From: an uncultured Armatimonadia bacterium
Lineage (GTDB): Bacteria > Armatimonadota > Zipacnadia > Zipacnadales > UBA11051
Reading direction: 5' to 3'
NCBI GenBank assembly: GCA_964390495.1
Contig: CAYMIN010000013.1
Span: 28,081-92,080 of the forward strand
DNA length: 64,000 nt
A program made the position numbers and the translations under genes. Position 1 is the stretch's first letter; the number at the start of each line of letters is the position of its first letter. Below are positions 1,175-19,400 of the stretch, piece by piece. The notes under the pieces are model-generated. The model ran no database searches. It had not been told where the DNA came from and saw only the letters and a program-made list of their open reading frames with translations.

Positions 1175-2308
1175 ATGGGAACTGATAATACTACGCCACA
1201 ACCCGATCGGCCGGCAGCTCCGGACCGGGGCGCGCAGACCCCCCAGCCGCCTCAATCTCCAGCATCGTCCACCTCGCATTATGGTAGCGGCCAGCCGCCG
1301 CATGGCCCTCAGCCGCCCTCAGGAGGCGGTCGTGGCGTCATAACTGTGATAATCATCGTCCTGATCCTGGTGGGCCTGGGCCTGGCTAGCATTATCGGCC
1401 TGGCGCTGTTGGTCAGTTCGATCACGGATACCAAGTCCTCGGGCCTGGCGCTGGGTGACAAAGTCGGTGTGGTGATGGTGGAGGGCGTGATTATGTCCGG
1501 TGGCCGCGCCTCCCCGATATTCGGCGGGCCGGCGGGGTCCCGCGCGATCATGGCCGACATCCGCGCCGCCAAGCGCGAAAGCGACATCAAGGCCGTGGTG
1601 CTATATGTCAACAGCCCGGGCGGCTCCGCGGCCGCTTCACAGGCCATCTATAAAGAAGTCGCCGCCCTCGCCGAGAAGAAGCCGGTTATCGCCGCGATGG
1701 ACGATGTCGCGGCCTCGGGCGGCTACTATGTCGCCTGCGCCGCTGACAAGATCATGGCTAACGGCTCCACCATGACCGGCAGCATCGGTGTCATCATGTC
1801 CGGAATTGCCTACTACGGCTTGATGGACAATATTGGTGTGGACGACCACACCATCACCAGCGGCAAGTACAAGGACATCGGCTCGCCCTGGCGTCCAATG
1901 GAGCCGGATGAGAAAAGGCTGCTCCAGGGACTGGTGCAGGATGTTTATGACCAGTTTGTGGACGCGGTGGCTGAGGGCCGCGACATACCCCGGGAGAAGG
2001 CGCTCAAGCTTGCTGACGGCAGGATTTTCACCGGTCGCCAGGCCCTCGCCCTCGGCCTGGTGGACAAGCTGGGCTCCTATTATGATGCCGTCGAGTTAGC
2101 CGCCAAGGAAGCCGGCATCAAGGGCGAGCCGAAGGTCAAGACGTTCGGTGCCTCCAAGAGCATCTGGGGCGAGCTGTTCGGCACCGAAGAGCTTTTTCCC
2201 TTGCCTTCCCGGCGTAGTTTGCTGAATCTGACCGGACCGATGCTGATCGAGCCTTTCACTTACAATAATCTGGCCCTGCAAGCCCTCCCGTTGCGGCCCG
2301 TGCCCTAA
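1175..2308 (+). CDS. sppA: signal peptide peptidase SppA (36K type, S49 family) with Pro-rich N-terminal extension and one TM helix
   Basis: S49 motifs NSPGGSAAAS, AASGGYYVACAADKI and GSIGV. The N-terminus has the hydrophobic stretch VITVIIIVLILVGLGLASIIGLALLV. Confidence 0.85.
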   Translation: MGTDNTTPQPDRPAAPDRGAQTPQPPQSPASSTSHYGSGQPPHGPQPPSGGGRGVITVIIIVLILVGLGLASIIGLALLVSSITDTKSSGLALGDKVGVVMVEGVIMSGGRASPIFGGPAGSRAIMADIRAAKRESDIKAVVLYVNSPGGSAAASQAIYKEVAALAEKKPVIAAMDDVAASGGYYVACAADKIMANGSTMTGSIGVIMSGIAYYGLMDNIGVDDHTITSGKYKDIGSPWRPMEPDEKRLLQGLVQDVYDQFVDAVAEGRDIPREKALKLADGRIFTGRQALALGLVDKLGSYYDAVELAAKEAGIKGEPKVKTFGASKSIWGELFGTEELFPLPSRRSLLNLTGPMLIEPFTYNNLALQALPLRPVP

Positions 2309-2350
2309 GCTCACAAGCCACCCACCAGGTCCCGGCCAGGAGCCTTTGCT

Positions 2351-5014: not shown

Positions 5015-5202
5015 CTGCGGACTCTGCTCAACTTGTGATGTGTGACCTTTTGTTTTCACCTTCCACATGCGTCGGGCTTTGCGCCGCCCTAGCTGACAGT
5101 TAATATAGCGAAGGCGGTTGTGCCCCGACCGAACACTGGACATCGCCTAGCTCAACTTGGCATGGTCGTCCCTCAGAGACGGCCGAAGGGAGATTCTTTC
5201 AC

Positions 5203-6846
5203 ATGACTTGGGACTTTGATAATACCGACAAGGCAAAGAAGCCGCAGCAAGTAGCTGAATCGTCGTCTGAAGAAGCCTCCGAAACAACCGGCGACGCTCT
5301 GGAAGCCGCCCTCGACCAGGCCTTGCCCGTTCACGTCGAGAAGGGCGATATCGTCACAGGCGTCGTCGCCGCGGTTGATGACCAGTTCGTCAGCGTTGAC
5401 ATCGGCACCAAGTACGAGGGCCTGATTCCCGCCTCCGAGTTTGCCGGTCCTGATGAGATGCCGGCCTTGGACGACAAGATTGAAGTTGCTGTTGTCAAAG
5501 TTGATGATAAAGAGAGCGTGGTCAGGCTGTCCAAGCGCAGGGCCGACTACGAGCGCGTCTGGAACCGCCTCACCGAGGCTGCCGAAAGTGGCGAAATCGT
5601 CGAGGGCATCGTCACCGAGCGCGTCAAGGGCGGATTGCGCGTGGACGTGGGCATGCCGGGTTTTGTGCCTGGCAAGCATGTAGCCACCCGCAACCTCCGT
5701 AACCTCGAGCGTTTTGTCGGCCAGTCGCTGCGCCTGCGCGTGCTCGAAGCCAACCGCGAGTCCAAGAAGCTGATCCTCTCCCACCGCGTGGCGGTCGAAG
5801 AAGAACGCGAACGCCGTCGCCAGGAGACCCTCGATCAGCTCGAAGAAGGCGTGGTCTGCGAAGGCAAAGTGCGCAGCCTCACCAGTTACGGCGCTTTTGT
5901 TGACCTCGGCGGCGTTGACGGGCTGCTCCACATCTCCGAAATGGCCTGGACACGTGTCAAGCACCCCTCCGAAGTGCTCAAGGTGGGGGATACGGTTCGC
6001 GTTGCCGTCCTGGACATTGACCGCGAGAACGACCGTATCTCACTTTCCAGGCGACAGATTCTGCCCGATCCCTGGAAGGCAGCTGCGCCCAATATCCGCG
6101 TCGGCAGTGTTCTCAAGGCGCGCGTCACCCGCGTGGTGCGCACCGGCGCCTTCGCGCAGTTGCTGGACCACGAAATCGAGGGCTTCATCCCCATATCCGA
6201 AATGAGCGCCAAACGCATCTCTGAGCCCTCCGACGCAGTCAGCGCCGGCCAGGAGGTTGATCTCAAGGTCATGGACATGCGCATCAAGGCCCGGCGGATG
6301 ACCTTGAGCCTCGTCGCCGCCGACCAGGAGAAGGAGCGCCGCGAGTACCAGCAATACATGGCCAACCAGGAACAGGCTAAGGTCACTCTCGGAGATCAGT
6401 TCGGTGACGTTCTGCAGCAGGCCGCCGTCGCCGCTGAAACCGAACCCGCGGCAGAACCACCATCCCAGCAAGAGCCCGAGCCGGAACCAGTCGCGGAGAC
6501 AGTGGAGCAACCGGCTGATCAAGAAACCACAGAAGAGCCCGACGCACCAGCGGAGCCAGAAGCGCCTGAAGAGCCAGCCGAGGAGCCCGAAAAGCCAGCC
6601 GAAGAACAGCCCGAAGAGGAGCCCGAAGAGGCAGCCGAAGAACAGCCCGAAGAACAGGCCGAAGAAGCAGCCGAAGAGCAGCCTCAAGAGGACCCTGAAG
6701 AAGCAGCCGAAAAGCCCAGAAAGGCCAAGCAAGCCGCCAAGCCGAAGAAAACCGCAGCCACCAAGAAAGCGAAAGAGCCCAAGAAAACCAAAAAGGCCAA
6801 GGCCGCGGCGGACAAATCAGACCAAGCCGAAGAGGCGGATGAGTAG
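5203..6846 (+). CDS. rpsA: 30S ribosomal protein S1 (four S1 domains) with ~150-aa acidic (EEQPEE repeats) then lysine-rich C-terminal tail
   Basis: Four S1 OB-fold repeats (GDIVTGVV..., GEIVEGIVTERVKGGLRVDVG, GVVCEGKVRSLTSYGAFVDLGG, GSVLKARVTRVVRTGAFAQL). A GAAGGGAG RBS lies upstream. The tail is low-complexity, P/E-rich then K-rich. Confidence 0.85.
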   Translation: MTWDFDNTDKAKKPQQVAESSSEEASETTGDALEAALDQALPVHVEKGDIVTGVVAAVDDQFVSVDIGTKYEGLIPASEFAGPDEMPALDDKIEVAVVKVDDKESVVRLSKRRADYERVWNRLTEAAESGEIVEGIVTERVKGGLRVDVGMPGFVPGKHVATRNLRNLERFVGQSLRLRVLEANRESKKLILSHRVAVEEERERRRQETLDQLEEGVVCEGKVRSLTSYGAFVDLGGVDGLLHISEMAWTRVKHPSEVLKVGDTVRVAVLDIDRENDRISLSRRQILPDPWKAAAPNIRVGSVLKARVTRVVRTGAFAQLLDHEIEGFIPISEMSAKRISEPSDAVSAGQEVDLKVMDMRIKARRMTLSLVAADQEKERREYQQYMANQEQAKVTLGDQFGDVLQQAAVAAETEPAAEPPSQQEPEPEPVAETVEQPADQETTEEPDAPAEPEAPEEPAEEPEKPAEEQPEEEPEEAAEEQPEEQAEEAAEEQPQEDPEEAAEKPRKAKQAAKPKKTAATKKAKEPKKTKKAKAAADKSDQAEEADE

Positions 6847-6879
6847 GCCGACTGTTGTAGCGACAGGGACGAAGCCGCC

Positions 6880-7476
6880 ATGACTGTTCTCGGCATAGTT
6901 GGGCCGATGGGCTCCGGCAAGACCTTCGTGCTGGAGGCGCTGCGGCGGCTCGGAGCCGTGACCATCAAGGCCGATGACCTATCCAGAGAGTTGCTGCAGC
7001 CGGGCGCCGAGCTGACGGCCAAGGTCAGGCAAGCCTTCGGCGACGAGTGCTTCGACAGCCAGGGCCACCTGCTGCGGGGTAAGTTGGCCGAGTTGATCTT
7101 TGCCAGCGAGCCGGCCCGCCAACGCCTCAACGCCATTATGTATCCGGCGATGCGGGGTCTGCTGCGGGAGCGCCTTGGGCAATTCCGCAAGCTAGCTACC
7201 CCGCCGGCGCTGGTGGCGGTGGAGGTCGCCAACCTCTACGAAATGGGCGCCGCCGGCCTGGTTGATTATGTCCTGAGTGTCACTGCTTCCCGGCCCGTGC
7301 GCGAACAGCGCATCCGCAGCCGCGACTATCTGAGTGCCGCCGAAGCCAGACGCCGTCTCGACGTTCATGCCGCCGCCGGCTTGGACGATAACCCGGCCGA
7401 TTTTGAGATCAGCACCGACAAAAATGGAGGCCAACTACAGGCGGAAGTAGAAGCCTTGTACCGACGCCTCACTTAG
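6880..7476 (+). CDS. coaE: dephospho-CoA kinase
   Basis: N-terminal P-loop GIVGPMGSGKT. Its length of about 198 aa and its CoaE-like sequence fit the usual position after S1 and PolA. Confidence 0.85.
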   Translation: MTVLGIVGPMGSGKTFVLEALRRLGAVTIKADDLSRELLQPGAELTAKVRQAFGDECFDSQGHLLRGKLAELIFASEPARQRLNAIMYPAMRGLLRERLGQFRKLATPPALVAVEVANLYEMGAAGLVDYVLSVTASRPVREQRIRSRDYLSAAEARRRLDVHAAAGLDDNPADFEISTDKNGGQLQAEVEALYRRLT

Positions 7477-7816: not shown

Positions 7817-10800
7817 TTGGCGCTGGCCGGTCAACATAGAGTGCATCATAGCACCTGCCGAGGAGTGATTGTCTTGCAGAAGGGCCACACCAGACCTCTG
7901 GCTTCACTACTGCTCTTCTGTGTGCTGGTCGCAGTCTTACTTATCATATCATCCGTCGCCTCCACGCAGTCCTCACGCCTAGGTGCTGCGGGGCCGCTGT
8001 TGTCCCTCGACCAAATGCAGCGCCAGCCTCTGCTGCCCGGCCAGACTCCCGAGTTCTTCCGCTGCGCTACCTGCCCGGACGGCCAGGTCACTACCCAGCA
8101 GACCCCCGGCCCGGACCCCGATCAGAATATTACCGCCAAGGCCACCGCCTCTCAAGAGTGGGAGCCGAACACCGCCCCGGTAGTTGGTCAGAACCGCATC
8201 GCCTTTGCCAGCAACGGCGAAGACCTCATCAACAACCAAACCGGAATCGAGGGGCCTGACGGCTTCATTGACCCGACCTTGCCCGAGAATCCCGACTTCG
8301 ACCTCTGGCTGATGCGCCCTGATGGCACCCAACAGCAGAAGGTCATTGACCTGCCCGGCGACCAGCGCGATCCGGCTTTCGATCCCGGCGGCCGCCTCCT
8401 CGCCTATGCCTCCAACCACAGCGGCACTTATCAGATCTATACCGTCGAGGTCAGTACAGGTGTCACCCGCAGGATCACCACTCCGGAGGGCGGCGCCGGC
8501 AACAAGCGCCACCCCACCTGGTCAGCCGACAGCAACTGGATCGCCTTCCAATGCGACCGCCGCGGCAATTGGGACATCTTCAAGATTCTCTCCAACGGCG
8601 CTAGCGCCGAAATCCCGCTGGCCTTCAGCTCTAATGACGAGGTCGCGCCGGCCTGGTCGCCGACAACTCCCTATATCGCCTACCAAGTAACCATCAACAA
8701 TGTCAGCCGCATCTTCTCCATGGACACTGAGGGCGGCAACAGGACCCAACTCAGCAACGGCGGCGGCAACCCCAATGCCAACGACATTGACCCCGCCTGG
8801 CAGCCGCTCGGCCAGTCCTTGGTATTCGCTTCCGACCGCCTCGTCCCCGATTCCGGTGACACTACCAATGACTACAATATCTGGACCATGTCAGCCACTG
8901 GCGAGATCATCACCGGCGCCGCCTCGCTGATAAGCTCTGATGATCCCAACGACGTCTATGACGATAAAGACCCCACCTGGACGCCTGATCTGACCCAGCG
9001 CGCCCAGACCCGCTTCGTTTTCGCCTCTAACCGCCCGGTAGATGCCAACGACACCAGTGAACCCGACATCTGGGCCACCTTCGAAGAGGACATCCTGCCG
9101 CCGGAGCTGACCAAGGCTCCCGGCCGCGAAAATGCCTTACCGTGGGTTGACATTCGCAATCCAGCCCCCGGGGCCGACATCACCATCTCTGTGAGCGTCT
9201 ATGACCGCGACTCCGGTGTCGCCTCGGTCGTCGCCCTGCTCAAAGATCCCGAGATGAAGCTCTATGACTGGTCGCTTGCTATATTCGAGCCTACCAATAA
9301 CCTCGGCTGGCAAGCACTCGAGCGTGACTGCGTAATAGTTGATGGCAAGGAGCTTCTCGATGACGGGGTGCCTCCGGACCAGACGGCGGGCGATGGCATC
9401 TTCACCGGCACTTACACCACGCTGCCCACCCCGCGCGATTACATCATAGACATCGCCACAGTAGATGTCGTCGGCAACGGGATGACCTATGATGACATCT
9501 ATGGTTTCAGCACAGTTACCTTCAATCCCAATGACCGTGTCCTGTTTGTTGATGACTACTGTGAGGGCCAGGCCTTCATCTACCTGACTGGTATCAATAA
9601 CGACTGGCCGGCGCAGTTCCCGGTGGAGAGTTACTACCGCTGCAACCCCGGCTATTACCCGGGTCTTGAGCGCACGATTGACTTTGACAGCATCATCGCC
9701 TGGGCGGTTGATTACGACACTTCGGGATTTGGCGATGGACCAGCCGAAGAGCATTGCACGAGCGTGGACATCGAGGGCCATTACGATGTCTGGCGCATCC
9801 TTTGTCGCGGCCCCATCCCGGACACCATTCTCCGCAACTATCTCCCGACCGTGGAGTACCAGTTGGTGCCCGAAGACGCGCTGGCCGACCCGACCTGGGC
9901 GCTGCCCACCCGCGAAGTGCTGGTGGCCAACCGCGCCGTCATCTGGGCCGCCCCGCATACCGGTGATGTCTGGATAGCTGACGGCACCATCATGGATGCC
10001 GCGGTGCAAGGCCAGCTCAAGAACTTCCTGAACCAGGGCGGACGCCTCTTTATCTCCGGCGAAGACCTCGCCTGGGCCCTGACGATGGCTGGACGCACGA
10101 GCAACGACTTCCTCAGCAGATACCTGCGCGCCCAGTACCTAAGTGACGTCGCCGGCGGCGACGGCTTCACCGTTGAGGGCAACAACGACCCCTACAGCCC
10201 GGTATCGTGGGATGCCTGGGTGGGAACCGGCGCAAGCCATCCGGGCGTCGCGCCCAACTGGTGGCCCGACTGCTGCAACCCAGTGGCTCTTCTTACACCT
10301 GTAGCCAGTACAGCAGGCTATAGCGACGCTGCCGACCACCTTGGCCGGGGACGGGGTGGCTCGGTCCGCGCCGACGGCATCGTGCCCAGCGGAGACGTCA
10401 AGCTCTACGGCTACGGCGGCTTTGGCGGCACCGGCGCTGCCACGTGGTATGCCGACCCCGCCACCGGGGCGCACGTTGTCTATCTGGCCTTCGGCTTTGA
10501 AGACATCCATCGCAGCTACCGGCTCAGTGGGACGAGTCCCCCTCCTCATTGCCATAACCACCGCAGCCACCTGTTCCACAATTTCTTGTGCTGGGCCCGC
10601 ACCGCCGCCTTCCAAGGACGAGTAGTCTCCATCAGCGAAGGCGGCCAGCCGGTCACCGACCCTGAGCCGATCGTCGTCATCACCCAGGGCAACAACCGCT
10701 ACGCCGTCCGCTGCCAGAAGGACGGCACCTATGTAATCCAGGGCGTCAAGTCCGGCCAGTATTCCATGCAGGTGATACGCGTCGGCTACGAGATTGACCA

Positions 10801-13072
10801 CGCCGAGGGCGAGCACGCTCACGGCGGCTGGGCTCCCGTACAGGTGGACTTCGCCATCAAAGAAGCCCAGCCCGGCGCCATCGCCGGAACCGTGGTTTCT
10901 GAGGCAAGTGGCGATCCCATCGCCAATGTCACCGTCACTGTGTATGCGAAACCTGAACCCGAACCCGAGCCGGAACCGGGGCAGGTCGTTGCGGCCCAGG
11001 ACGAAGGCGACATCCCGATTGAGGACCTGGGCGACCCCGTTGTTCCACCGGTGCACACGGGCGCTGACGGCACCTTCGTGATTCCCGAGGTCCCGGTCGG
11101 CGACTATATCGTGGTCGCTGACGGCACCGCTGCCGGCTACGGTACCCAGCAGCTCGAGACCACGGTCACCCCGGGCGACAGCGCCAACCTTGCCTTTGTG
11201 CTCGGCGCTGCCGCCGGAGCTCTTGAGGTCCATGTCACCGCCGCCGACACTGGCGACGACATTGAGAATGCCACCATTCAGGTGCTTGACGAGAATGGCC
11301 AGCAGGTGGTTGTGCCTGCTCCCATGACCGGCCCGTCCGGCATCGTCAATATTCCTTTGCCTGCCGGCGACTACCAGGTGCGCGCCGCCTCCGCCGGCTA
11401 CGAAGCCTCGACCCTGCAGGGCGTTGTGGTGGTCTCTCAGGAGACCACACATCTCGACATCGCCCTCAACCGCGTGGCCGACGGCGCTGTCTCCGGCAAG
11501 GTCACCTCCGCTACCACCGGCCAACCCGTTGGTGACGTGCTCATCAGAGTTCTCTCCGGCGGCACTGTCAGAGCCACAGGCTATACCAGCGATCAGTTCA
11601 CCGACCCCGGCGACGGTACGCCGTCGTACAATTACTTTATACCTGACGTGCCCGCCGGCGAGGTCACTGTCCAGCCGGTCGTCTCCGGCTACGACCCACA
11701 GCCCGACCAGCGCGTTGTCACCGTCGTCAGTGGTGAGACCATCACCGGCGTCAGCTTCGTGCTGGAAAGCCTGCACGTCTTCCCCCAGGGCCTGCAGCTC
11801 ATCTCGCTGCCCTGGGACTTCAGCAGTGGCCAGAGCGACAAAGACCCGGCCAACTTGCTCGGGATTCCCGCTAGCCAGTTCCTCATGGCGACTTGGGAGA
11901 CCAGCACCGCCCGCTACCGCATTTATCCCAACGCCCCTGCCGACCGCTTCCGCCTCGGCACCGGCTACTGGCTGAATCTGGCGAGTCCCGCCGACCTGGC
12001 TCAGGAGGGCACCCCGCCCCTAACCGTTCACCAGATCTCACTACTTGCCGGCTGGAACCTGATTGGGGACCCGTTCCTATCCACTATCGACTTCTACGCA
12101 ACCAATATCCGCGCCCAGAACGGCACTCTGTACTCGGTCCAGGAGGCCCTGGCCCAGAATCTGCTCGGCTCCGGCCTGTTCGCCTATATGCTGGGCGGCT
12201 ACCGCATCGTCTCTGCCTTGACGCCCTATGTCGGCTACTGGCTCTACGCCAACGATCCCTGCAAGTTGGTCATTGATGAAAGCACGGATACAATGGCGGT
12301 AGGCACCCAGGCCGCGGCACCGGCTGTACCCGTGCCTGCCGATGGTTGGCTGTTACAGTTGCAGACCACGGCTACCGTTGCCGGCCTGCAGGACACCGCA
12401 GCCTATTTGGGCACCGCTGCCGGCGCCTCCGACGATTTCGATCCCGGTCTCGACCAGGCCAAGCCGCCGGTGCCGATTAGTGGTGGCTATGTCTATCTGT
12501 CACTAGGGGGCGCTAGTGGTCCGGATATGGCAGTTGACATCCGTAGTCAGCAGTCCAGTCAACAGCAGTGGGACCTGGAGGTGCAGACCAACCTCAGCGG
12601 CCAGCCGATTGAGATATCCTGGCCCGACATGTCCGGCCTGCCGCCGGCGACACAGCCGATTTTGACCGATCTGGCCACCGGCAAGCGGCTATACATGCGC
12701 ACCAACCGCGCTTATAGCTTCGCGGCGGACGGCACCAACCGCAGACTGCGGGTGAGCACCTCAGCGGCGGGTGTCGGCCAGTTGGCGATAACTGCCGCAG
12801 CCGCCTCCACCACACCCGCCGCGGCCACTGTCAGCTACACCCTGTCGCGCAACGCTCAAGTCAGCATTGATGTGTACAATATCAGTGGTCGTCTCATCAG
12901 CCGCGTGCTCGAGGAGCAGACCCAGACCGCCGGTCTGCAGTCGGTGGCCTGGCATGGCCGCAACAATGCCGGCGTCAAGGTGCCCAATGGCCGCTATCTG
13001 GTCCGCATCACCGCCCGCACCGACGACGGTCAGCAGGCCCAGGCTCTGACCCAGATGGCGATAACTCGTTAA
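7817..13072 (+). CDS. giant secreted multidomain protein (1751 aa): signal peptide, TolB-like PD40 beta-propeller, GATase1-like region, CarboxypepD_reg-like beta-sandwich repeats, PEPEPEPEP linker, shared tripartite C-terminal tail ending in FlgD-Ig/T9SS-type CTD
   Basis: TTG start at 7817. An alternative TTG at 7874 follows a GAGGAG RBS and gives the canonical signal peptide MQKGHTRPLASLLLFCVLVAVLLIISSVAS. PD40-like repeats are present (LLAYASNHSGTYQIYTVEVSTG..., WIAFQCDRRGNWDIFKI). CarboxypepD_reg-like segments are present (DGTYVIQGVKSGQYSMQV, GTFVIPEVPVGDYIVVADGTAAGY). The C-terminal 430 aa are paralogous to the tails of the ORFs at 16470 and 19882. Confidence 0.8.
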   Translation: MALAGQHRVHHSTCRGVIVLQKGHTRPLASLLLFCVLVAVLLIISSVASTQSSRLGAAGPLLSLDQMQRQPLLPGQTPEFFRCATCPDGQVTTQQTPGPDPDQNITAKATASQEWEPNTAPVVGQNRIAFASNGEDLINNQTGIEGPDGFIDPTLPENPDFDLWLMRPDGTQQQKVIDLPGDQRDPAFDPGGRLLAYASNHSGTYQIYTVEVSTGVTRRITTPEGGAGNKRHPTWSADSNWIAFQCDRRGNWDIFKILSNGASAEIPLAFSSNDEVAPAWSPTTPYIAYQVTINNVSRIFSMDTEGGNRTQLSNGGGNPNANDIDPAWQPLGQSLVFASDRLVPDSGDTTNDYNIWTMSATGEIITGAASLISSDDPNDVYDDKDPTWTPDLTQRAQTRFVFASNRPVDANDTSEPDIWATFEEDILPPELTKAPGRENALPWVDIRNPAPGADITISVSVYDRDSGVASVVALLKDPEMKLYDWSLAIFEPTNNLGWQALERDCVIVDGKELLDDGVPPDQTAGDGIFTGTYTTLPTPRDYIIDIATVDVVGNGMTYDDIYGFSTVTFNPNDRVLFVDDYCEGQAFIYLTGINNDWPAQFPVESYYRCNPGYYPGLERTIDFDSIIAWAVDYDTSGFGDGPAEEHCTSVDIEGHYDVWRILCRGPIPDTILRNYLPTVEYQLVPEDALADPTWALPTREVLVANRAVIWAAPHTGDVWIADGTIMDAAVQGQLKNFLNQGGRLFISGEDLAWALTMAGRTSNDFLSRYLRAQYLSDVAGGDGFTVEGNNDPYSPVSWDAWVGTGASHPGVAPNWWPDCCNPVALLTPVASTAGYSDAADHLGRGRGGSVRADGIVPSGDVKLYGYGGFGGTGAATWYADPATGAHVVYLAFGFEDIHRSYRLSGTSPPPHCHNHRSHLFHNFLCWARTAAFQGRVVSISEGGQPVTDPEPIVVITQGNNRYAVRCQKDGTYVIQGVKSGQYSMQVIRVGYEIDHAEGEHAHGGWAPVQVDFAIKEAQPGAIAGTVVSEASGDPIANVTVTVYAKPEPEPEPEPGQVVAAQDEGDIPIEDLGDPVVPPVHTGADGTFVIPEVPVGDYIVVADGTAAGYGTQQLETTVTPGDSANLAFVLGAAAGALEVHVTAADTGDDIENATIQVLDENGQQVVVPAPMTGPSGIVNIPLPAGDYQVRAASAGYEASTLQGVVVVSQETTHLDIALNRVADGAVSGKVTSATTGQPVGDVLIRVLSGGTVRATGYTSDQFTDPGDGTPSYNYFIPDVPAGEVTVQPVVSGYDPQPDQRVVTVVSGETITGVSFVLESLHVFPQGLQLISLPWDFSSGQSDKDPANLLGIPASQFLMATWETSTARYRIYPNAPADRFRLGTGYWLNLASPADLAQEGTPPLTVHQISLLAGWNLIGDPFLSTIDFYATNIRAQNGTLYSVQEALAQNLLGSGLFAYMLGGYRIVSALTPYVGYWLYANDPCKLVIDESTDTMAVGTQAAAPAVPVPADGWLLQLQTTATVAGLQDTAAYLGTAAGASDDFDPGLDQAKPPVPISGGYVYLSLGGASGPDMAVDIRSQQSSQQQWDLEVQTNLSGQPIEISWPDMSGLPPATQPILTDLATGKRLYMRTNRAYSFAADGTNRRLRVSTSAAGVGQLAITAAAASTTPAAATVSYTLSRNAQVSIDVYNISGRLISRVLEEQTQTAGLQSVAWHGRNNAGVKVPNGRYLVRITARTDDGQQAQALTQMAITR

Positions 13073-13228: not shown

Positions 13229-15151
13229 ATGCAGCACATCCGAAGAAGTTCGCTAGTCCGCAAGCTGGTTTACTTCCTGATCACAGCGATAATCCTTCCC
13301 TGCGGCATATCCTTCGGCCAGGGAACGATGTCATCAGGTGTGGGACGGACCGTCACCTCCTGTGTGGTCTTGCCCTTCACCAATGCCACCGGCCTCGATG
13401 ACCCTCTGCTGCCGGACAAAGCGGCCGCGGCCGTCGCGCTCTCCCTCGAGGACTCACGAGAGTTCGTGGTCACCTCCACCCTCGACCTCAACCGCGAGAT
13501 GGCCGCGCTCGGCATCCAGTCGCCGGTCACCAAGGGCGAGCAGGTCAGGCTTGGCGAGGCGCTGAGGGTCGAGAAAGTCCTTACCGGTACCATCACTGAA
13601 CTCTCTGTCAAGAAAGACAGCGGCCAGGCCCGCTGCAGCATGGAGATTAAGATGCTCAGCGTCAACGTTCAGGACTTCCTCGACGGCGCTTTGGCAACTG
13701 CAAGCACCAGCCCGATACCCGGCTGGAGCGGTGACATCACCAAGGTGGTCAACGACGCCATGCGCGCCGCCGCCGAGGCCGCCGTCAACCAGATGTTGGC
13801 CGGGCGCGTTCGCCGCGGCCATGTGGACCTCGTTACCGACCGTGGACAAGTCAACATCGGCCTCGGCATCGGGGACGGTATTGAGGTCGGCAGTGAGTTA
13901 CTGGTAATGCGTCCCACGTGGTCCGCGGACCTGGAAAAGGTAGTCATGCGCCGCGTTGGCACAATCTCCGTCGGCGAAGTGTACACGGATATGGCGTGGG
14001 CTGGTGTTGTTGATGGCTCGACCCCTCAGACCGGCGACCGGGTCTATAAGCTCTACAAGCCGCCGGTGCGCAAGAAGGCCGAACACCGGGCCAAGTCCAG
14101 AAAGAGCCTCACCCAGGCCGTCGCCGCTATCGCCCTACTCGTCGGCATCTACGCGGTGGGTACTGGCACTTCCATCGCCAGTGGCTCTGTGCTCAAAGGC
14201 AACCTCTCTCAGGCCACCTGCGGAGCCGACCCCACCGTGGTTCTGGAGTTGCACAGCAGCAATACCGAGCGCGAGAGAACCCACGGCTGGGTTATCTATC
14301 GGGGCAACAGCCCTTACTTCCCCCCGACCCCTTACAACATGATTGACGTCATCGAGATCAAGGATCTGCCCTCCAACCGCTACAGTGACGACCCCAATCT
14401 CACCGAGTACATTGAGGACTTTGAGTTCACATACTTCTATTTCGTCGAAGAAGGCGAACAGGAAGAAGCCGACGTTACCGCCTCCTGGAACCACCTGCCG
14501 ATGAGCCCGGGCACCAGGTACTACTACACCGTGCGCAGAATTATTGAGCCGCTGCGCCCGCCGGGGTACAACCCGCCGATAACCCCCCAGCAGGCGGAAG
14601 AGCCGGTGGAGCCGACTTTTGAGCTCGAGGTCGAAGGCGGCTCCGGCTTGTCCGAGGCCAGCAACCATTTCGGACCGGTTACATACTTCTTGCCGCCTCA
14701 GCTTTCCAGTCCCACTCACGGCGCTCCTAACCAGGATGTCTCCAATGTCCGCTTCACCTGGCAGGTGACCACCGGTGCGGACCTGTACAAGGTCGAGCTC
14801 TTTGGGCCTACCGATCCCAACGGCAGAGGCGGACGCTACTGGGAAAGCCCCGAACTCCGTGCCAGCGGTGGCGCCGCGACCATGAGCACATCATTCAGCG
14901 TCGCTAACCCGGCTGCCGGGCTTACTCCCGACACCACCTACTACTGGCGTGTCGGGGCCCGCGCTAGCGGCGACGCCGCCGACCCGCGTAACCAGGACCT
15001 GAACAAAGTCGGCTACCTGTACAGCCAGATGCGGGAGTTCCATACCGTCGTACAGCCTCCCGGCCCCTTGGAGGCTAAACAAGACAACGCCAAACCGGCC
15101 ACCCACAAGCCCGGCTTCTGGCGGGTCAAACGTGGTGGTGTTGGCCGCTGA
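13229..15151 (+). CDS. membrane protein: N-terminal signal/anchor, LpoB/CsgG/TolB-N-like periplasmic domain, central TM helix, C-terminal FN3-like domain(s)
   Basis: The likely start is the ATG at 13229 (MQHIRRSSLVRKLVYFLITAIILPCG) after GGAGGGAG; the ORF track begins at 13118. VLPFTNATGLDD...FVVTSTLDLNREMAALG...VEKVLTGTITE matches the VxVLPFxNxTG...F.VV.R..L...GAD.vltG.It signature of LpoB/CsgG-type domains. A TM helix follows (AVAAIALLVGIYAVGTG). An FN3-like region sits near the C-terminus (VRFTWQVTTGADLYKVELFGP...TTYYWRVGAR). It is a paralogue of the gene at 22847..23911. Confidence 0.6.
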   Translation: MQHIRRSSLVRKLVYFLITAIILPCGISFGQGTMSSGVGRTVTSCVVLPFTNATGLDDPLLPDKAAAAVALSLEDSREFVVTSTLDLNREMAALGIQSPVTKGEQVRLGEALRVEKVLTGTITELSVKKDSGQARCSMEIKMLSVNVQDFLDGALATASTSPIPGWSGDITKVVNDAMRAAAEAAVNQMLAGRVRRGHVDLVTDRGQVNIGLGIGDGIEVGSELLVMRPTWSADLEKVVMRRVGTISVGEVYTDMAWAGVVDGSTPQTGDRVYKLYKPPVRKKAEHRAKSRKSLTQAVAAIALLVGIYAVGTGTSIASGSVLKGNLSQATCGADPTVVLELHSSNTERERTHGWVIYRGNSPYFPPTPYNMIDVIEIKDLPSNRYSDDPNLTEYIEDFEFTYFYFVEEGEQEEADVTASWNHLPMSPGTRYYYTVRRIIEPLRPPGYNPPITPQQAEEPVEPTFELEVEGGSGLSEASNHFGPVTYFLPPQLSSPTHGAPNQDVSNVRFTWQVTTGADLYKVELFGPTDPNGRGGRYWESPELRASGGAATMSTSFSVANPAAGLTPDTTYYWRVGARASGDAADPRNQDLNKVGYLYSQMREFHTVVQPPGPLEAKQDNAKPATHKPGFWRVKRGGVGR

Positions 15152-15163
15152 CGCGGAGCCGAC

Positions 15164-16372
15164 ATGCAATGGCTATGGCCGCCCCGACAGGCGGCAATCG
15201 GATTCGTCGCAGTTGTTGTCGGGTCACTGCTGTTCCTTGACAATGCGTTCGCCGCTGCACGCCCCAAGTGGGCTGTGATGGCATACCTCAGCGGGCAGGG
15301 CGGCCTGGAGCAGGAAGCCGCGGCCTATTGGCAGACCCTAATCGAAGCCGCCGCCGAGGGCTACTGCGCCGCCGCCGTGCAGATTGACGGGCCACACCTC
15401 TGCGCCAGGTGGCTGGCCGTCCCCGGTAAGCGCTGCAAATACCAGCCGCTGGGGGTTGTCAATATGGGTGCCCAGCCGGCCCTGACGGAGTTCTTGCAGT
15501 GGGCGCGCCGCAGTCTCGCGGCGGACCGCTATCTGCTCATCGTCATGGGGCACGGTTCCGGTCTGGCCACCCTCGCGCCGCAGCTTAGTGGCGTGGCCTT
15601 TGATGGTGGCAGTAGCGATACCTTGAGCATCGCTGAGCTGTCCGCCGCCCTGGCCGAAACGCAACCTGCGGACCGGCCCATCGAGCTGGTATCTCTGCAG
15701 GCCTGCTACGCCGCCAGCCTTGAGGTGGCCTACAGCCTGCGGCAGACGGCCAATTACCTGGTGGCCTCGCCCGACCGGGTGGCCAGTCCGGGTTTGCCCT
15801 GGGCCCAACTGCTGCCGCGATTGAGCGGCTGCGAGGACGGCTATGCCGCCGTCCAGGTCCTGTATGGCGAATACGAGCACGCACTTGTCGGGTTTGATTT
15901 ACGGGCGGCGGCTGATGTCACAGCGCACTTGACGGCTTTAGTCGAGGCCTTGAGCGCGGATGTGCGCGCCAATGCGCCGGTCCTGCGTCTGATACGCAGC
16001 CGCAGTCCGAACTGGGGATATAGGGACGAGATGTGCGACCTGCTCTATCTGGCCCATGTGCTGCACCGGGTGGCCGGCAGCAGGCAAGTCGCTGAGTGTG
16101 CCGGCGAATTCGAGCTAAGCCTGGAGCGCGCGATGGTCCCGCGGCCCGGCCGTCGGACGGCGAACGCAGAGGCCCATGTGGGGAATCTGGGAATCTTCTT
16201 CCCGGCCACGTGGGAACCGGTCCCGACACACTATGGCAGCACTTATCGTCTGGCTGATGAAACCGGGTGGGCCGAGTTCCTGAAGGCCTACTACGACATC
16301 ACCGCCGGCCAGCTTATCGGCTCCGGCATCCAGGTGCCGCCGGCGCGGCCGGGCTCAACTGGCGTACTGTAG
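15164..16372 (+). CDS. clostripain-like (peptidase C11, clan CD) cysteine peptidase with N-terminal signal/anchor
   Basis: Caspase-fold catalytic dyad context: LLIVMGHGSG (His-Gly) and LVSLQACYAASLEVAYSL (Ala-Cys), spaced as in C11 clostripain. The N-terminus WAVMAYLSGQGGLEQEA resembles the C11 W.v.vY..gDNnLe block. N-terminal hydrophobic segment AAIGFVAVVVGSLLFL. The start is tightly coupled, 12 nt after the previous stop. Confidence 0.6.
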   Translation: MQWLWPPRQAAIGFVAVVVGSLLFLDNAFAAARPKWAVMAYLSGQGGLEQEAAAYWQTLIEAAAEGYCAAAVQIDGPHLCARWLAVPGKRCKYQPLGVVNMGAQPALTEFLQWARRSLAADRYLLIVMGHGSGLATLAPQLSGVAFDGGSSDTLSIAELSAALAETQPADRPIELVSLQACYAASLEVAYSLRQTANYLVASPDRVASPGLPWAQLLPRLSGCEDGYAAVQVLYGEYEHALVGFDLRAAADVTAHLTALVEALSADVRANAPVLRLIRSRSPNWGYRDEMCDLLYLAHVLHRVAGSRQVAECAGEFELSLERAMVPRPGRRTANAEAHVGNLGIFFPATWEPVPTHYGSTYRLADETGWAEFLKAYYDITAGQLIGSGIQVPPARPGSTGVL

Positions 16373-16469: not shown

Positions 16470-19400
16470 TTGAGGCATCATGGCCGCCCTGCAAAAACTC
16501 GCCTGCGAACTGCCTTCGCAATCGCCCTGGTCGCCCTGCTCTTGGCGGGTGGTGCAGCGACCCAGGCAGCCCCCCAGGTCTCCGACGATCTGGCCGGACC
16601 GCTGCGCGCAGTTGCTGCTGCGGCGGCCTCGGGTCACACCGCGCCGGCCGCTGTCAGCCCCCTGGTGCGTATCCAGGGCGGGTTGGTGCAGGTTGAGATC
16701 ATCTTCCGCACTTCTTTGGCAGCCTTCTCCACCAATCTGGCTGCCTACGGTGGCCGCGTGGAGATTCGCTCAGGCAACCGCGTCCAGGCTTGGCTGCCTG
16801 CCGGCTCCCTCAATGCTGTTGCTGAGTTGCTCGAGGTGGCCCAGATCCGCCTACCGCGCTGCCCGGTGCCGCTCCAGGGCTACGGGGGGGCCTCTTCCGA
16901 GGGCGTCCAACTCACGGCCGCCACTGCCATGCACACCAATAGCATCACCGGCTCCGGCGTCAAGGTGGCGGTCATAGATACGGGCTTTGGCGGCTACGAC
17001 GAAGCGGAGATCCCGGGCGTCGGTGAGGGCTCCGGGCGCACGATATCATTCAGCAGCGGCGGCGGAATGGGTGGCTCGCAGCACGGCACAGCCGTGGCCG
17101 AGGTAGTCGCCGACATGGCTCCCGAGGCCGAGATCTATCTGCTTGCAGTTGACACCAACCTCGCCATCGAGCAGGCTATCAACTACGTGCGCGACAACGC
17201 TTTTGGCGTTGCGGTTATGTCGCTAGGGTCCTTCGATGGCCCCTACGACGGCACTCATTCGGTATCGCAGAAGGTGAATGTCGCGCGGGCCTCGGGCGTT
17301 TTCTGGGTGAATGCCGCCGGTAATCACGCCCAGCGCCACTACGAAGGTGACTGGACCGATCGCAACGGCAATCGCTTCCACGAGTGGGGCTTCGGTCACG
17401 AGGACATGGACCTGAGCCTGTCGCGCGGCACTTTCCAGGCCTTCCTCAGTTGGTATCAAACCGCCGGCGACACCACCAACCACGATTATGACTTGGTGCT
17501 CTTCGACGCCGGCGGCACGGAGGTCACCAGGTCCGCGGTGACCCAGAACGGCGACGACCCGCCGGACGAGGTGCTGGTGGCGTACGTGCCTGAGACGGCG
17601 AACTATTCCCTGCGTATTGAGCGCATGTCACCCGACGTAATCCCTGCCAATGATCGTTTCCAGCTCTTCCTTCCCGATGTTGATGTGGAGAGCATACACC
17701 GAGTACCCGAACATAGTCTGCCGGTTCCCGCCGAAGCCGCCGGTGCCTTCACCGTGGGCGCGACCCGCGGCTCCCTGCGCATTATCGAGGGTGATGCGGT
17801 GCTGCCGATAGATGCAATCGAGCAATACAGCTCCCGCGGCCCCTCACTTAGCGGGCTGCTCAAGCCCGATCTATGCGGACCCGATTACGTCACCACCAGC
17901 CTGGTCGGCACGGCCTATGATCCGTTCGCCGGAACCTCGGCGGCAGCACCGCACGTCGCCGGCGGCGCCGCCTTGCTGCTCTCTGAGGACAGCACCAGGA
18001 CCCCGGCGATGCTCACCACTATCCTGCAGAATCTGGCCGTCAAAGACATGCTGGTAACCGACCCGTCCACCGGCCAGAGGCTACCCGACAACACTTACGG
18101 TTACGGTCGGCTGAGACTGCGGGTCGGCACCGACACTATCCCTCCGGAGATTGGCATCAGCTTCCCGCACAATGGCAGCACCATCACTGACGCCACCCCA
18201 ACGATAGTCGCCACTATTACCGATATCGGCAGCGGCGTGGACCAGTCCACAATCGAAGTCGAACTGGACGGGAACCTGGTCGCGTGGAATTATGTGCCCA
18301 GCAACGGCTTGCTCACATATACGGTCCCGCCTGAGGCCGCGCTCACTCGCAGTCGCCACACCTTGACCATTGATGCGCAGGACTATGACGGCAATGCCGC
18401 CACCACCGCGGTAAGCAATTTCCGCGTCACTGCGCCCTCAATTGACGCCGGGTTGCACCTGATCAGCTTGCCCTACCCGGGTCTGGCCGCTGCCGACCCC
18501 TCAGTGGTATTCGGCATCCCATACGACCAGTTGCAGTTGGCACGCTGGGTACCCAGCGACGCCCGGCCGGTCAAGTACCATATCTACATGGACGAATATG
18601 CCACCTTCGACCCGCCGGATGCCCGCGGCACTAATGCCATAGTCAGCGACCCGCCTGCCGGCCTCGGATATTTCGTGCGCCTGCCCAAACAGTGCACCCT
18701 CAACACCGGCGCCGCCGGCCCCCTGATCGGCATCGACTCGTACCAGATCAAGCTCATCTACGGAACCGATGCCCCACGCGGCTGGAACCTTATCGGTAAC
18801 CCCTATGAGTCGGTGGTTGACTGGGGTACGGTTAGCTTCATTGCCGAGGGCCAGCGCTATGACCTCCGCGAAGCGATGTCTGAAGATGTCGAGCTCACGG
18901 AGGGGGTGCTGTTCGACTTCATCTCCACGGCCACCGGCGGCTATTACAGCTTCTCCTCCGATCCCTCCGCAGATGTCCTCGAGTACATGCGCGGCTACTG
19001 GGTGCATGTCTTGCGCGACGCAACCCTGGAGATGTATAACCCGGCAATCACTGCTAGCGTCGGCGCCAGGCCCGCTCGCGCCAGCTCAGCTAGCGCCCCG
19101 ACCAAGGACCAGTGGACGCTCAAGCTCTCTGCTGTCAGCGGCCAGCACCAGGACCCTGTCAACTATATCGGGGTACGCCCCGAAGCCAGCCAGGGCTACG
19201 ACATCGGTCTCGACATCAGTGAGCCGCCTGCGATCGCCCAGAGCCTGGCGCTTTACATGCCCCAGCCCGATTGGGGCAGCCGTGCCGGACATTATGTGCG
19301 CGATCTGCGCAGCAGCCTGAGTGCCCGCCAGGAGTGGGATGTTGAGGTCGCCTCCGCACTCGCCCAAGCTCCCGTCACCTTGACCTGGAGCGAGCTTAAC

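What the first reader, a model, noticed from the sequence alone, without database searches (positions are those of the whole stretch)
13229..15151. Paired paralogous membrane proteins with LpoB/CsgG-like periplasmic domain, a single internal TM helix and FN3 module (second copy 22847-23911), each following a cargo gene
Both start with a hydrophobic signal or anchor. They then show the V(L/V)(P/F)(F/P)xNxTG ... F-VV ... L ... G(A/M)D(Y/K)V(L/I)TG-I(T/S) signature of the LpoB/CsgG/TolB-N lipoprotein fold. A TM helix and FN3 follow.
The topology is odd: FN3 lies after the TM, predicted cytoplasmic if the N-terminal domain is periplasmic.
Duplication alongside each cargo block suggests dedicated chaperone, anchor or assembly partners.
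Basis: partly seen in the sequence, partly recalled or inferred. Interest (0 to 1): 0.6.

Follow-up and report, generated by a model that had tools for sequence, protein, structure and literature searches.

The report
Helix-anchored LpoB-fold envelope proteins, Armatimonadota
Two distantly related genes encode exported proteins in which a domain that other bacteria attach to the outer membrane by a lipid is instead followed by a basic stretch, one hydrophobic helix and fibronectin-type domains. Both are fixed parts of a conserved cell-envelope gene cluster in a phylum that lacks outer-membrane lipoproteins.

Summary
A (13229-15151, 640 aa) and B (22847-23911, 354 aa) each have a signal peptide, an LpoB/PelC/CsgG-fold domain, one later hydrophobic helix and FN3 module(s). 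AF2 models of both hit PelC, CT253, GNA1162, CsgG, FlgT and LpoB. BLASTP finds no similarity between A and B, but profile comparison does (Prob 96-97%), so they are ancient paralogues in the N-domain only.

The "one chaperone per cargo" reading is only partly supported. In all 16 Armatimonadota loci with B and downstream sequence, B lies directly upstream of a 640-690-aa Big_1 plus putative beta-barrel gene. A- and B-type genes persist in a relative that has no tail-bearing cargo genes.

The same N-module heads about 250-aa proteins and giants of up to 6605 aa made of FN3/Big_1 arrays. Lys/Arg residues always precede the helix and never follow it. I therefore argue the FN3 side is not cytoplasmic.

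Best reading: these are helix-anchored substitutes for outer-membrane lipoproteins in a Lol-less diderm. They probably partner the co-encoded barrel and present FN3 domains to the tail-bearing proteases. Which membrane the helix sits in is unresolved. No family model or paper describes this architecture.

The parts
13229..15151 (+). Gene A, 640 aa: signal peptide, LpoB/PelC-fold domain, beta-rich insert, basic stretch, hydrophobic helix, two FN3-like domains, basic C-terminal tail
13229..13318 (+). A signal peptide (aa 1-30). Basic n-region MQHIRRSSLVRK; probable signal peptidase I site SFG|QG; Cys25 not conserved, so not a lipobox
   Evidence: n-region pattern shared across the superfamily
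13355..13807 (+). A N-domain (aa 43-193), LpoB/PelC/CsgG/TolB-N-like alpha/beta fold
   Evidence: AF2 pLDDT 76-89; Foldseek PelC 1e-7, GNA1162, CsgG, LpoB 4q6z 9.5e-6; hhalign to B
13814..14053 (+). A-specific beta-rich insert (aa 196-275), absent from B. Low model confidence. A weak MreC-barrel-like Pfam hit in the Abditibacteriota orthologue P0184
14054..14176 (+). A polybasic stretch (aa 276-295, 7 K/R in the 20 aa before the helix) plus a Gly/Ala-rich hydrophobic helix (aa 296-316)
14186..15058 (+). A post-helix region: FN3-like sandwich 1 (about aa 320-440, low confidence) and FN3-like sandwich 2 (aa 485-610)
   Evidence: Pfam Pur_ac_phosph_N / Ig_Rha78A_N sub-threshold; AF2 strands; tandem-FN3 Foldseek hits
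15092..15148 (+). A conserved basic C-terminal tail (consensus KPGFFG.VRRG.VGR)
   Evidence: function unknown
22847..23911 (+). Gene B, 354 aa: signal peptide, LpoB/PelC-fold domain, basic stretch, hydrophobic helix, Gly/Ser/Asn linker, one FN3
22958..23470 (+). B N-domain (aa 38-208), LpoB/PelC/CsgG-like fold
   Evidence: AF2 pLDDT about 90; Foldseek FlgT, CT253, PelC, GNA1162, CsgG, E 1e-6 to 5e-5
23471..23575 (+). B basic stretch (aa 209-224) plus hydrophobic helix (aa 225-243, SWKWLLYGLAIGALIIAVN)
23621..23908 (+). B FN3 domain (aa 259-354)
   Evidence: profile hits to gp130 5e-6, titin and others; Foldseek FN3 hits, TMt 0.7-0.8
24062..26044 (+). Partner gene, 660 aa: signal peptide, one invasin-type Big_1 domain, then about 520 aa rich in Gly, Tyr, Trp and Ser, with no Cys and no TM helix, ending in an invariant Phe. 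Putative outer-membrane beta-barrel. Always directly downstream of B
7817..13072 (+). Tail-bearing protein 1 (1751 aa): PD40/TolB-like propeller, CarboxypepD_reg repeats, choice-of-anchor X, shared 500-aa tail ending in a FlgD_ig / T9SS type-A-like CTD. Directly upstream of A
15164..16372 (+). Exported clostripain-family (C11, clan CD) peptidase, 12 nt after A
16470..19850 (+). Tail-bearing protein 2 (1126 aa): subtilase S8 plus the shared tail
19882..22737 (+). Tail-bearing protein 3 (951 aa): unknown N-part plus the shared tail. Directly upstream of B

Best explanation
A and B are two anciently diverged paralogues of a family restricted to Armatimonadota and Abditibacteriota. I call its defining unit the N-module: a family-specific basic signal peptide, an LpoB/PelC/CsgG-fold domain, a polybasic stretch, one Gly/Ala-rich hydrophobic helix and a Gly/Ser/Asn linker.

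Shown:
- The architecture, the fold and the remote homology between A and B.
- Membership in a conserved same-strand locus with the order tail-protein / A / C11 peptidase / S8-tail / tail-protein / B / barrel-like protein.
- B lies next to the barrel-like gene in every locus.
- The same N-module carries anything from nothing to 6300 residues of FN3/Big_1 arrays.

Inferred mechanism:
1. The proteins are exported by Sec.
2. The LpoB-fold domain sits in the periplasm. In other bacteria this fold belongs to outer-membrane lipoproteins, several of which (PelC, CsgG, FlgT) form rings.
3. Diderm Terrabacteria have no Lol pathway and no outer-membrane lipoproteins. Here the basic stretch plus helix replaces the lipid anchor.
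4. B works with the co-encoded barrel, as PelC works with PelB.
5. The FN3 module(s) lie on the far, non-cytoplasmic side of the helix, most likely at the cell surface.
6. There they serve as docking stalks for the three secreted proteins that share the 500-aa tail: a propeller giant, a subtilase and a 951-aa protein. The C11 peptidase possibly processes those tails.
For: - Fold. Pfam LpoB is above its cut-off in relatives P0098, P0184 and P0158.
- Homology of A and B.
- Signal peptides and non-conserved Cys.
- Synteny. B is followed by the barrel gene in 16 of 16 loci. The gene order is invariant across the loci that cover the whole cluster (the window, L001, L003/L004, L009-L011 and L017), and the partial loci are consistent with it.
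- Barrel-like features of the partner: invariant terminal Phe, no TM helix, no Cys, and enriched amphipathic beta periodicity (z 1.5-6.3).
- Superfamily architecture: 237 hits. 107 of 147 inspected have a signal peptide plus a later helix. C-terminal payloads run from 0 to 6300 aa of FN3, Big_1 and Invasin_D3, which are domains of extracytoplasmic proteins.
- Charge asymmetry: 6.6 K/R before the helix versus 0.3 after in family A, and 4.2 versus 1.0 in family B.
- The helix is only marginally hydrophobic (a crude scale).
- Armatimonadetes are diderm Terrabacteria with OmpM. Lol and outer-membrane lipoproteins are absent from Terrabacteria (bioRxiv 10.1101/2021.05.31.446380; PMC11784454).
- Tails shared by the three large proteins.
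Against: - No oligomer or complex could be modelled. Ring formation, contact between B and the barrel, and FN3-tail docking are all inference.
- The barrel assignment rests on sequence features only. There is no hit to any known OMP family.
- The simplest Sec logic (signal peptide plus a later hydrophobic helix) predicts an inner-membrane span with a cytoplasmic C-terminus.
- A has a basic C-terminal tail, which would suit a cytoplasmic end.
- The FN3 domains are strongly conserved, which is unusual for surface-exposed domains.
- The Abditibacteriota locus L008 has an A-type gene and the barrel but no B. The P0149 locus has B but no barrel downstream. So the parts list is not absolute.
Confidence: 0.5

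Rival explanations
1. Ordinary type I inner-membrane proteins. The signal peptide is cleaved, the LpoB-fold domain sits in the periplasm, the helix is a stop-transfer anchor in the inner membrane, and the FN3 module(s) are cytoplasmic.
For: - This is the simplest outcome of Sec translocation for a signal peptide followed by a 19-21-residue hydrophobic helix.
- A's conserved basic C-terminus fits a cytoplasmic end.
- High conservation of the FN3 domains.
Against: - The charge bias is inverted and conserved. K/R cluster before the helix and are almost absent after it, in both families and across 107 superfamily members.
- The post-helix segment is Gly/Ser/Asn/Asp-rich.
- Homologues carry 800-6300 aa of FN3/Big_1/Invasin_D3 arrays at that position. 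These domains are known from extracytoplasmic proteins.
- Helix hydrophobicity is marginal.
Confidence: 0.25
2. Per-cargo chaperones or assembly factors. A serves the 1751-aa protein and B serves the 951-aa protein, each binding the tail of its upstream neighbour.
For: A follows a tail-bearing giant and B follows a tail-bearing protein in the window and in most relatives.
Against: - There are three tail-bearing proteins but two A/B genes.
- L005 keeps A, B and the barrel with no tail-bearing genes.
- Short B forms have no FN3 at all yet keep the barrel neighbour.
- Membrane-anchored, ring-type folds are not typical chaperones.
Confidence: 0.1
3. A lipoprotein-free LptE/LptD-like, or more generally plug-and-barrel, outer-membrane biogenesis pair. 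B is a helix-anchored analogue of LptE and the 660-aa protein is a divergent LptD-like barrel.
For: - B-barrel adjacency in 16 of 16 loci.
- The core locus lies between housekeeping genes (coaE and uvrB).
- Terrabacteria lack LptE and other outer-membrane lipoproteins.
- One relative gives a weak Pfam LptE hit, E 0.006.
Against: - No OstA_N or LptD signature in six family members or in the profile.
- The partner carries an invasin-type Big_1 domain.
- B homologues carry adhesin-like passengers.
- Foldseek's best 50 matches for A and B contain no LptE.
Confidence: 0.05
4. Tail-anchored-like topology. The LpoB-fold domain is cytoplasmic and the helix is an N-in/C-out anchor, which satisfies the positive-inside rule. 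The FN3 is periplasmic. The N-terminal hydrophobic stretch is not a functional export signal.
For: The pattern K/R, then helix, then a short polar tail is exactly that of tail-anchored proteins.
Against: - The N-terminus is a textbook Sec signal: basic n-region, 15-20-residue h-region and a small-x-small site.
- Every structural relative of the N-domain among the top Foldseek matches is described as a periplasmic or outer-membrane-associated protein (my own knowledge of those families).
Confidence: 0.07

Closest known systems
PelC (Pel exopolysaccharide export; PDB 5t10, 5t11, 5t0z; PelBC complex 9h80)
   Same: Among the best structural matches for both N-domains (E 1e-7 to 5e-5, TMt 0.53-0.70). 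A periplasmic domain encoded next to an outer-membrane barrel gene, as pelB sits next to pelC.
   Different: PelC is a small lipoprotein that ends after the domain. A and B have no lipobox and instead carry a basic stretch, a helix and FN3. There is no pel gene context. A 12-mer ring was not tested here.
LpoB (Pfam PF13036), GNA1162 (DUF799), CT253, CsgG periplasmic domain, FlgT N-domain, TolB N-domain
   Same: The same alpha/beta fold. Pfam LpoB scores above its cut-off in three superfamily relatives.
   Different: A and B themselves do not reach any Pfam or NCBIfam model. No PBP-activator, curli or flagellar context. The anchoring differs and C-terminal FN3/Big_1 payloads are added.
Inverse autotransporters (intimin/invasin, type Ve secretion)
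   Same: An N-terminal periplasmic domain, an outer-membrane element, then a C-terminal passenger of Big_1/Invasin_D3 repeats. The giant homologues P0085, P0091 and P0093 have exactly such passengers, and the partner protein has a Big_1 domain.
   Different: No beta-barrel lies within the same polypeptide. A single hydrophobic helix stands where intimin has its barrel, and the candidate barrel is a separate gene. No LysM domain.
Thermotoga Omp-alpha and Wza-type alpha-helical outer-membrane anchors
   Same: Precedents for an exported protein held in an outer membrane by an alpha-helix. Omp-alpha is from a Lol-less diderm Terrabacterial lineage (mentioned in 10.1101/2021.05.31.446380; details from my own knowledge).
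   Different: No sequence or fold relationship. Omp-alpha's helix is C-terminal and follows a coiled coil. Outer-membrane location of the A/B helix is not shown.
Type IX secretion cargo CTDs and the PorU sortase
   Same: The three neighbouring large proteins end in a FlgD_ig / Por_Secre_tail-like domain (TIGR04183 at 26.6 bits against a cut-off of 23 for the giant). A clan CD cysteine peptidase (C11) is encoded in the locus, and by my recollection PorU is also a clan CD cysteine peptidase (not tested here).
   Different: No T9SS core component was found in the locus. Armatimonadota are outside the phyla known to have T9SS (my own knowledge). A and B have no T9SS counterpart.

Membership tests
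LpoB / PelC / CsgG / TolB-N-like fold superfamily | Two-layer alpha/beta sandwich fold of about 130-170 residues | tested here: met
   AF2 models and Foldseek PDB hits with probability 1.0, E 1e-7 to 5e-5, TMt 0.5-0.7, for both A and B
LpoB / PelC / CsgG / TolB-N-like fold superfamily | Sequence-level match to a curated family model (Pfam LpoB PF13036, CsgG, TolB_N) | tested here: inconclusive
   A and B give no hit at E<=1. Relatives reached by profile search score above the LpoB cut-off: P0098 24.7, P0184 30.1, P0158 23.1, against 22.3
Outer-membrane lipoproteins of this fold (LpoB, PelC, CsgG, GNA1162) | Lipobox with invariant Cys at the signal peptidase II site | tested here: not met
   Cys25 of A is not conserved (Y, S or A in homologues) and B has no lipobox. 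The sites look like SFG|Q and SFA|G signal peptidase I sites
PelC | Dodecameric ring mounted on the PelB barrel, within a pel operon | not testable with these tools
   No multimer prediction was available. No pel genes in the window. Only the adjacency to a putative barrel is analogous
FN3 domain | Seven-stranded beta-sandwich with conserved Trp/Tyr core | tested here: met
   B aa 259-354: profile hits to gp130 at 5e-6 and to titin and sidekick; Foldseek TMt 0.7-0.8. A aa 485-610: sub-threshold Pfam FN3-like hits and tandem-FN3 Foldseek hits
Inverse autotransporter (type Ve) | 12-stranded beta-barrel in the same chain, N-terminal to the Big_1 passenger | tested here: not met
   There is no beta-barrel segment between the N-domain and FN3, only one alpha-helix
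LptE / LptD | LptE fold or family match, and a partner with OstA_N jellyroll plus LptD barrel signature | tested here: not met
   No LptE among the best 50 Foldseek matches. No OstA or LptD hit for the partner family. Only one weak LptE hit, E 0.006, in a relative
Type I inner-membrane protein | Stop-transfer helix followed by cytoplasmic positive charges (positive-inside rule) | tested here: not met
   K/R before versus after the helix: 6.6 versus 0.3 (A family) and 4.2 versus 1.0 (B family). The same holds across the superfamily

The most novel reading that the evidence does not exclude
The basic stretch plus Gly/Ala-rich helix is an alpha-helical outer-membrane anchor or stalk. It lets a Lol-less diderm phylum place LpoB/PelC-fold 'lipoprotein-type' domains under the outer membrane while displaying C-terminal passengers on the cell surface, from one FN3 up to 6300-aa FN3/Big_1 fibres. 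It would work with a dedicated, previously undescribed barrel protein. In effect this would be a new surface-display or secretion route, an inverse-autotransporter-like system split over two genes with a helix in place of the barrel linker.
Probability: 0.3. Interest if true: 0.85.

Novelty: new variant of a known kind. Interest (0 to 1): 0.62.

Why it matters
Recent reviews stress that diderm Terrabacteria build an outer membrane without any outer-membrane lipoproteins and without Lol, and that it is unclear how (PMC11784454; 10.1101/2021.05.31.446380).

Here a domain that in Proteobacteria is carried by outer-membrane lipoproteins (LpoB, PelC, CsgG, GNA1162) appears in such a phylum with a protein-based anchor. 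It sits in a core, syntenic locus next to a putative barrel.

- If the helix is in the outer membrane, this is a concrete and testable example of how lipoprotein functions are replaced, and of a new way to display giant adhesin-like proteins.
- If the helix is in the inner membrane, the family still defines an unannotated module that heads hundreds of large Armatimonadota/Abditibacteriota proteins, and it links them to a conserved cluster of tail-bearing proteases.

Tried and rejected
- BLASTP of A against B found nothing. The relationship appears only with profiles.
- Pfam and NCBIfam on A and B gave no family for the N-domains.
- A PDB sequence-profile search with the A family gave no hit.
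- The LptD idea for the 660-aa partner was tested three ways: a PDB profile search, Pfam on six members, and the last large homologue search. All returned only Big_1/invasin matches and close Armatimonadota relatives. I rejected it as the main reading.
- A Tat signal was considered. Twin arginines are not conserved in the alignments, so I rejected it.
- A lipoprotein signal was rejected because the Cys is not conserved.
- A PGF-CTERM-like reading of A's C-terminus (KPGFF...RRG) was rejected because no hydrophobic helix follows.
- Literature searches for Armatimonadota/Abditibacteriota combined with FlgD, T9SS or FN3 found nothing relevant.
- The A model is poor outside aa 43-190 and 500-610 (pLDDT below 50). 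The insert and the first FN3-like domain therefore remain tentative.
Full report
**What is there.** The window (62% G+C) carries a run of same-strand genes between coaE (6880-7476) and uvrB (26095-28110):
- a 1751-aa protein (7817-13072)
- A (13229-15151)
- a C11 peptidase (15164-16372)
- an S8 peptidase of 1126 aa (16470-19850)
- a 951-aa protein (19882-22737)
- B (22847-23911)
- a 660-aa protein (24062-26044)

Intergenic gaps are 12-157 nt.

A and B both start with a basic n-region, a hydrophobic stretch and a small-x-small site (SFG|QG in A, SFA|G in B).

**Fold and homology.** BLASTP finds no similarity between A and B. Neither matches a Pfam or NCBIfam family in its N-terminal half.

Each has its own set of close homologues, where named from Armatimonadota: 16 proteins for A and 39 for B. 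Profile-profile comparison of the two family alignments gives Prob 97.2%, E 3.9e-11 over the first ~190 (A) to ~205 (B) residues. With signal peptides removed it gives Prob 96.2%, E 2.8e-9. Plain HMMs of one family also pick up members of the other.

AlphaFold2 models were built on these alignments. The B model has mean pLDDT 84. The A model has mean pLDDT 54, but about 80 over aa 43-190. Foldseek against the PDB matches both N-domains to PelC, CT253, GNA1162, CsgG, FlgT and, for A, LpoB. E-values are 1e-7 to 5e-5 and target TM-scores 0.5-0.7. Pfam LpoB scores above its gathering cut-off in three more distant relatives. The LpoB/CsgG-like fold call is therefore confirmed, and 'paralogous' holds for the N-domain only. 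The post-helix parts are not demonstrably related (Prob 26).

B ends in a clear FN3 domain. A has two FN3-like sandwiches after the helix, the second being the better supported. A also has an extra beta-rich insert between the N-domain and the helix.

**Context across genomes.** I fetched loci around homologues and scored all ORFs with four HMMs: the A N-domain, the B N-domain, the shared tail and the 660-aa family.
- The order tail-giant / A / (C11) / S8-tail / tail-950 / B / 660-like is invariant in the Armatimonadota loci.
- It is flanked by polA-rpsA-coaE on one side and uvrB on the other.
- B is directly followed by the 640-690-aa gene in 16 of 16 loci that contain B and downstream DNA.
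- The three large proteins share a tail of about 500 aa (32-36% identity). It ends in a FlgD_ig / T9SS type-A-like domain.

Three variants are informative:
- **L005:** coaE / A-like (704 aa; 24% identity, E 1e-24) / B-like (1595 aa with FN3 plus Big_1 arrays) / 672-aa partner / uvrB, with no tail-bearing gene.
- **L006 and L007:** a protein with the first tail domain, then a 248-aa B that stops about 10 residues after the helix, then the partner.
- **L008 (Abditibacteriota):** A-like, two proteins with the first tail domain, and the partner, but no B.

It is not obligatory, however. The tightest pairing is between B and the downstream gene.

**The partner.** The 660-aa family has a signal peptide and one invasin-type Big_1 domain (E 7e-14 to invasin). 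About 520 residues follow, rich in Gly, Tyr, Trp and Ser. That region has essentially no Cys (none in four of the six sequences analysed) and no hydrophobic helix, shows enriched amphipathic beta periodicity, and ends in an invariant Phe. These features fit an outer-membrane beta-barrel, but no known OMP family matches, LptD included.

**The wider family and the topology problem.** I searched 1.84 billion representative proteins with a profile of B residues 1-250. It found 237 proteins at E<=1e-3 and 74 at E<=1e-10. Of 147 inspected, 107 have the same layout: signal peptide, domain, Lys/Arg cluster, Gly/Ala-rich helix, then a Gly/Ser/Asn/Asp-rich stretch.

What follows the helix varies widely:
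- Nothing: about 250-aa proteins, 54 of 88 of which end in a ...DNPPPPP[F/Y]-type tail.
- One FN3, as in B.
- Several FN3 domains.
- 800-6300 residues of FN3, Big_1 and Invasin_D3 repeats, as in P0085, P0091, P0093, P0149 and P0159.

The signal peptide's n-region is unusually conserved across the family, roughly M-x-x-[IFLM]-R-x-x-R-x-x-R. The other exported proteins of the locus do not share it.

The charge distribution is the reverse of a stop-transfer anchor. Counting K/R in the 20 residues before versus after the helix gives 6.6 versus 0.3 in family A and 4.2 versus 1.0 in family B. A crude Hessa-type sum, with scale values taken from memory, puts the helix at about +2 kcal/mol, which is marginal for membrane insertion.

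Three points are hard to reconcile with an inner-membrane span:
- The N-domain is exported. It has a signal peptide, and all its fold relatives are periplasmic (the latter from my own knowledge of those families).
- The C-terminal payloads are of a kind known only outside the cytoplasm.
- The positive charges sit on the 'wrong' side of the helix.

The helix may instead sit in, or pass through, the outer membrane or the partner barrel. This is inference, not demonstration.

**Why the phylum matters.** Armatimonadetes are diderm Terrabacteria with OmpM tethers. Lol and outer-membrane lipoproteins are reported as practically absent from Terrabacteria (10.1101/2021.05.31.446380; PMC11784454). All close structural relatives of the N-domain are outer-membrane lipoproteins in Gracilicutes. 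A basic stretch plus a helix is a plausible protein-based replacement for the lipid anchor.

**Most likely mechanism.**
- Shown: the architecture, the fold, the remote paralogy, the conserved locus, the B-partner adjacency and the variable passenger.
- Inferred: A and B are exported and their LpoB-fold domains sit in the periplasm. B works with the co-encoded barrel, as PelC works with PelB. The helix replaces the lipid anchor. The FN3 modules lie on the non-cytoplasmic far side and act as docking stalks for the tail-bearing propeller protein, the subtilase and the 951-aa protein. The C11 peptidase is a candidate tail processor.

I put about 0.5 on this overall picture and about 0.3 on the specific claim that the helix spans the outer membrane. 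The main rival, at about 0.25, is the ordinary type I inner-membrane topology with a cytoplasmic FN3. The per-cargo-chaperone, LptE/LptD-like and tail-anchored readings are less likely, for the reasons given in their entries.

**Novelty.** No curated family model covers the module. No paper in the searchable library describes it. The parts are known (LpoB fold, FN3); the combination, the anchoring and the locus are not. I rate it a new variant of a known kind, with a non-negligible chance of being a new outer-membrane anchoring or display principle.

Noticed in passing
window 11567-13069, 18348-19847, 21235-22734: The three large proteins share a C-terminal tail of about 500 aa (32-36% identity). 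It has a first domain (LISLPY...GWNLIGNPF...GYWL) with no Pfam match, a second conserved region, and a FlgD_ig / T9SS type-A-like CTD. The first domain alone also ends proteins in the Abditibacteriota locus L008 and in L006/L007.
   Followed up: partly
window 24062-26044: A 660-aa protein with a signal peptide, an invasin-type Big_1 domain and a putative beta-barrel ending in an invariant Phe. The family is known only from Armatimonadota and Abditibacteriota, matches no known OMP family, and always lies directly after the B-type gene.
   Followed up: partly
window 15164-16372: An exported clostripain-family (C11, clan CD) peptidase 12 nt downstream of A. It is present in most but not all related loci: no gene was called between A and the S8 gene in L001. 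It is a possible processing enzyme for the FlgD_ig-type tails, by analogy with PorU.
   Followed up: no
window 15092-15148 (A aa 622-640): A conserved basic C-terminal motif, KPGFFG.VRRG.VGR, in the A family. It recalls a PGF-type sorting motif but has no hydrophobic helix after it. Function unknown.
   Followed up: no
P0098, P0102, P0109, P0125, P0090, P0095 and about 50 other short superfamily members: Short forms of about 250 aa end 11-47 residues after the helix, with a Gly/Ser-rich stretch and a conserved ...D-N-P-P-P-P-P-[F/Y] C-terminus. This may be a vestige of the FN3 start (PPxNL) or a docking motif.
   Followed up: partly
N-termini of A, B and the superfamily (window 13229-13265, 22847-22883): The signal-peptide n-region is semi-conserved across very distant family members: hydrophobic at position 4, Arg at positions 5, 8 and 11. 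The other exported proteins of the locus do not share it. It may be a family-specific targeting signal, comparable to extended signal peptides of autotransporters.
   Followed up: partly
window 7817-13072 (protein aa about 1005-1015 and 512-536): The giant protein contains an (EP)n linker (PEPEPEPEP) and a choice-of-anchor X domain (NF041940, 30.2 bits against a cut-off of 25). It also has PD40/TolB-like propeller repeats and four CarboxypepD_reg domains.
   Followed up: no
window 1175-7476 and 26095-30320: The locus is embedded in conserved housekeeping synteny. Upstream lie an S49 (SppA-like) peptidase, polA, an S1-domain protein (rpsA-like) and coaE. Downstream lie uvrB and uvrC. The same flanks occur in distant relatives L001, L005 and L008, so the locus is core rather than a mobile island.
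   Followed up: partly
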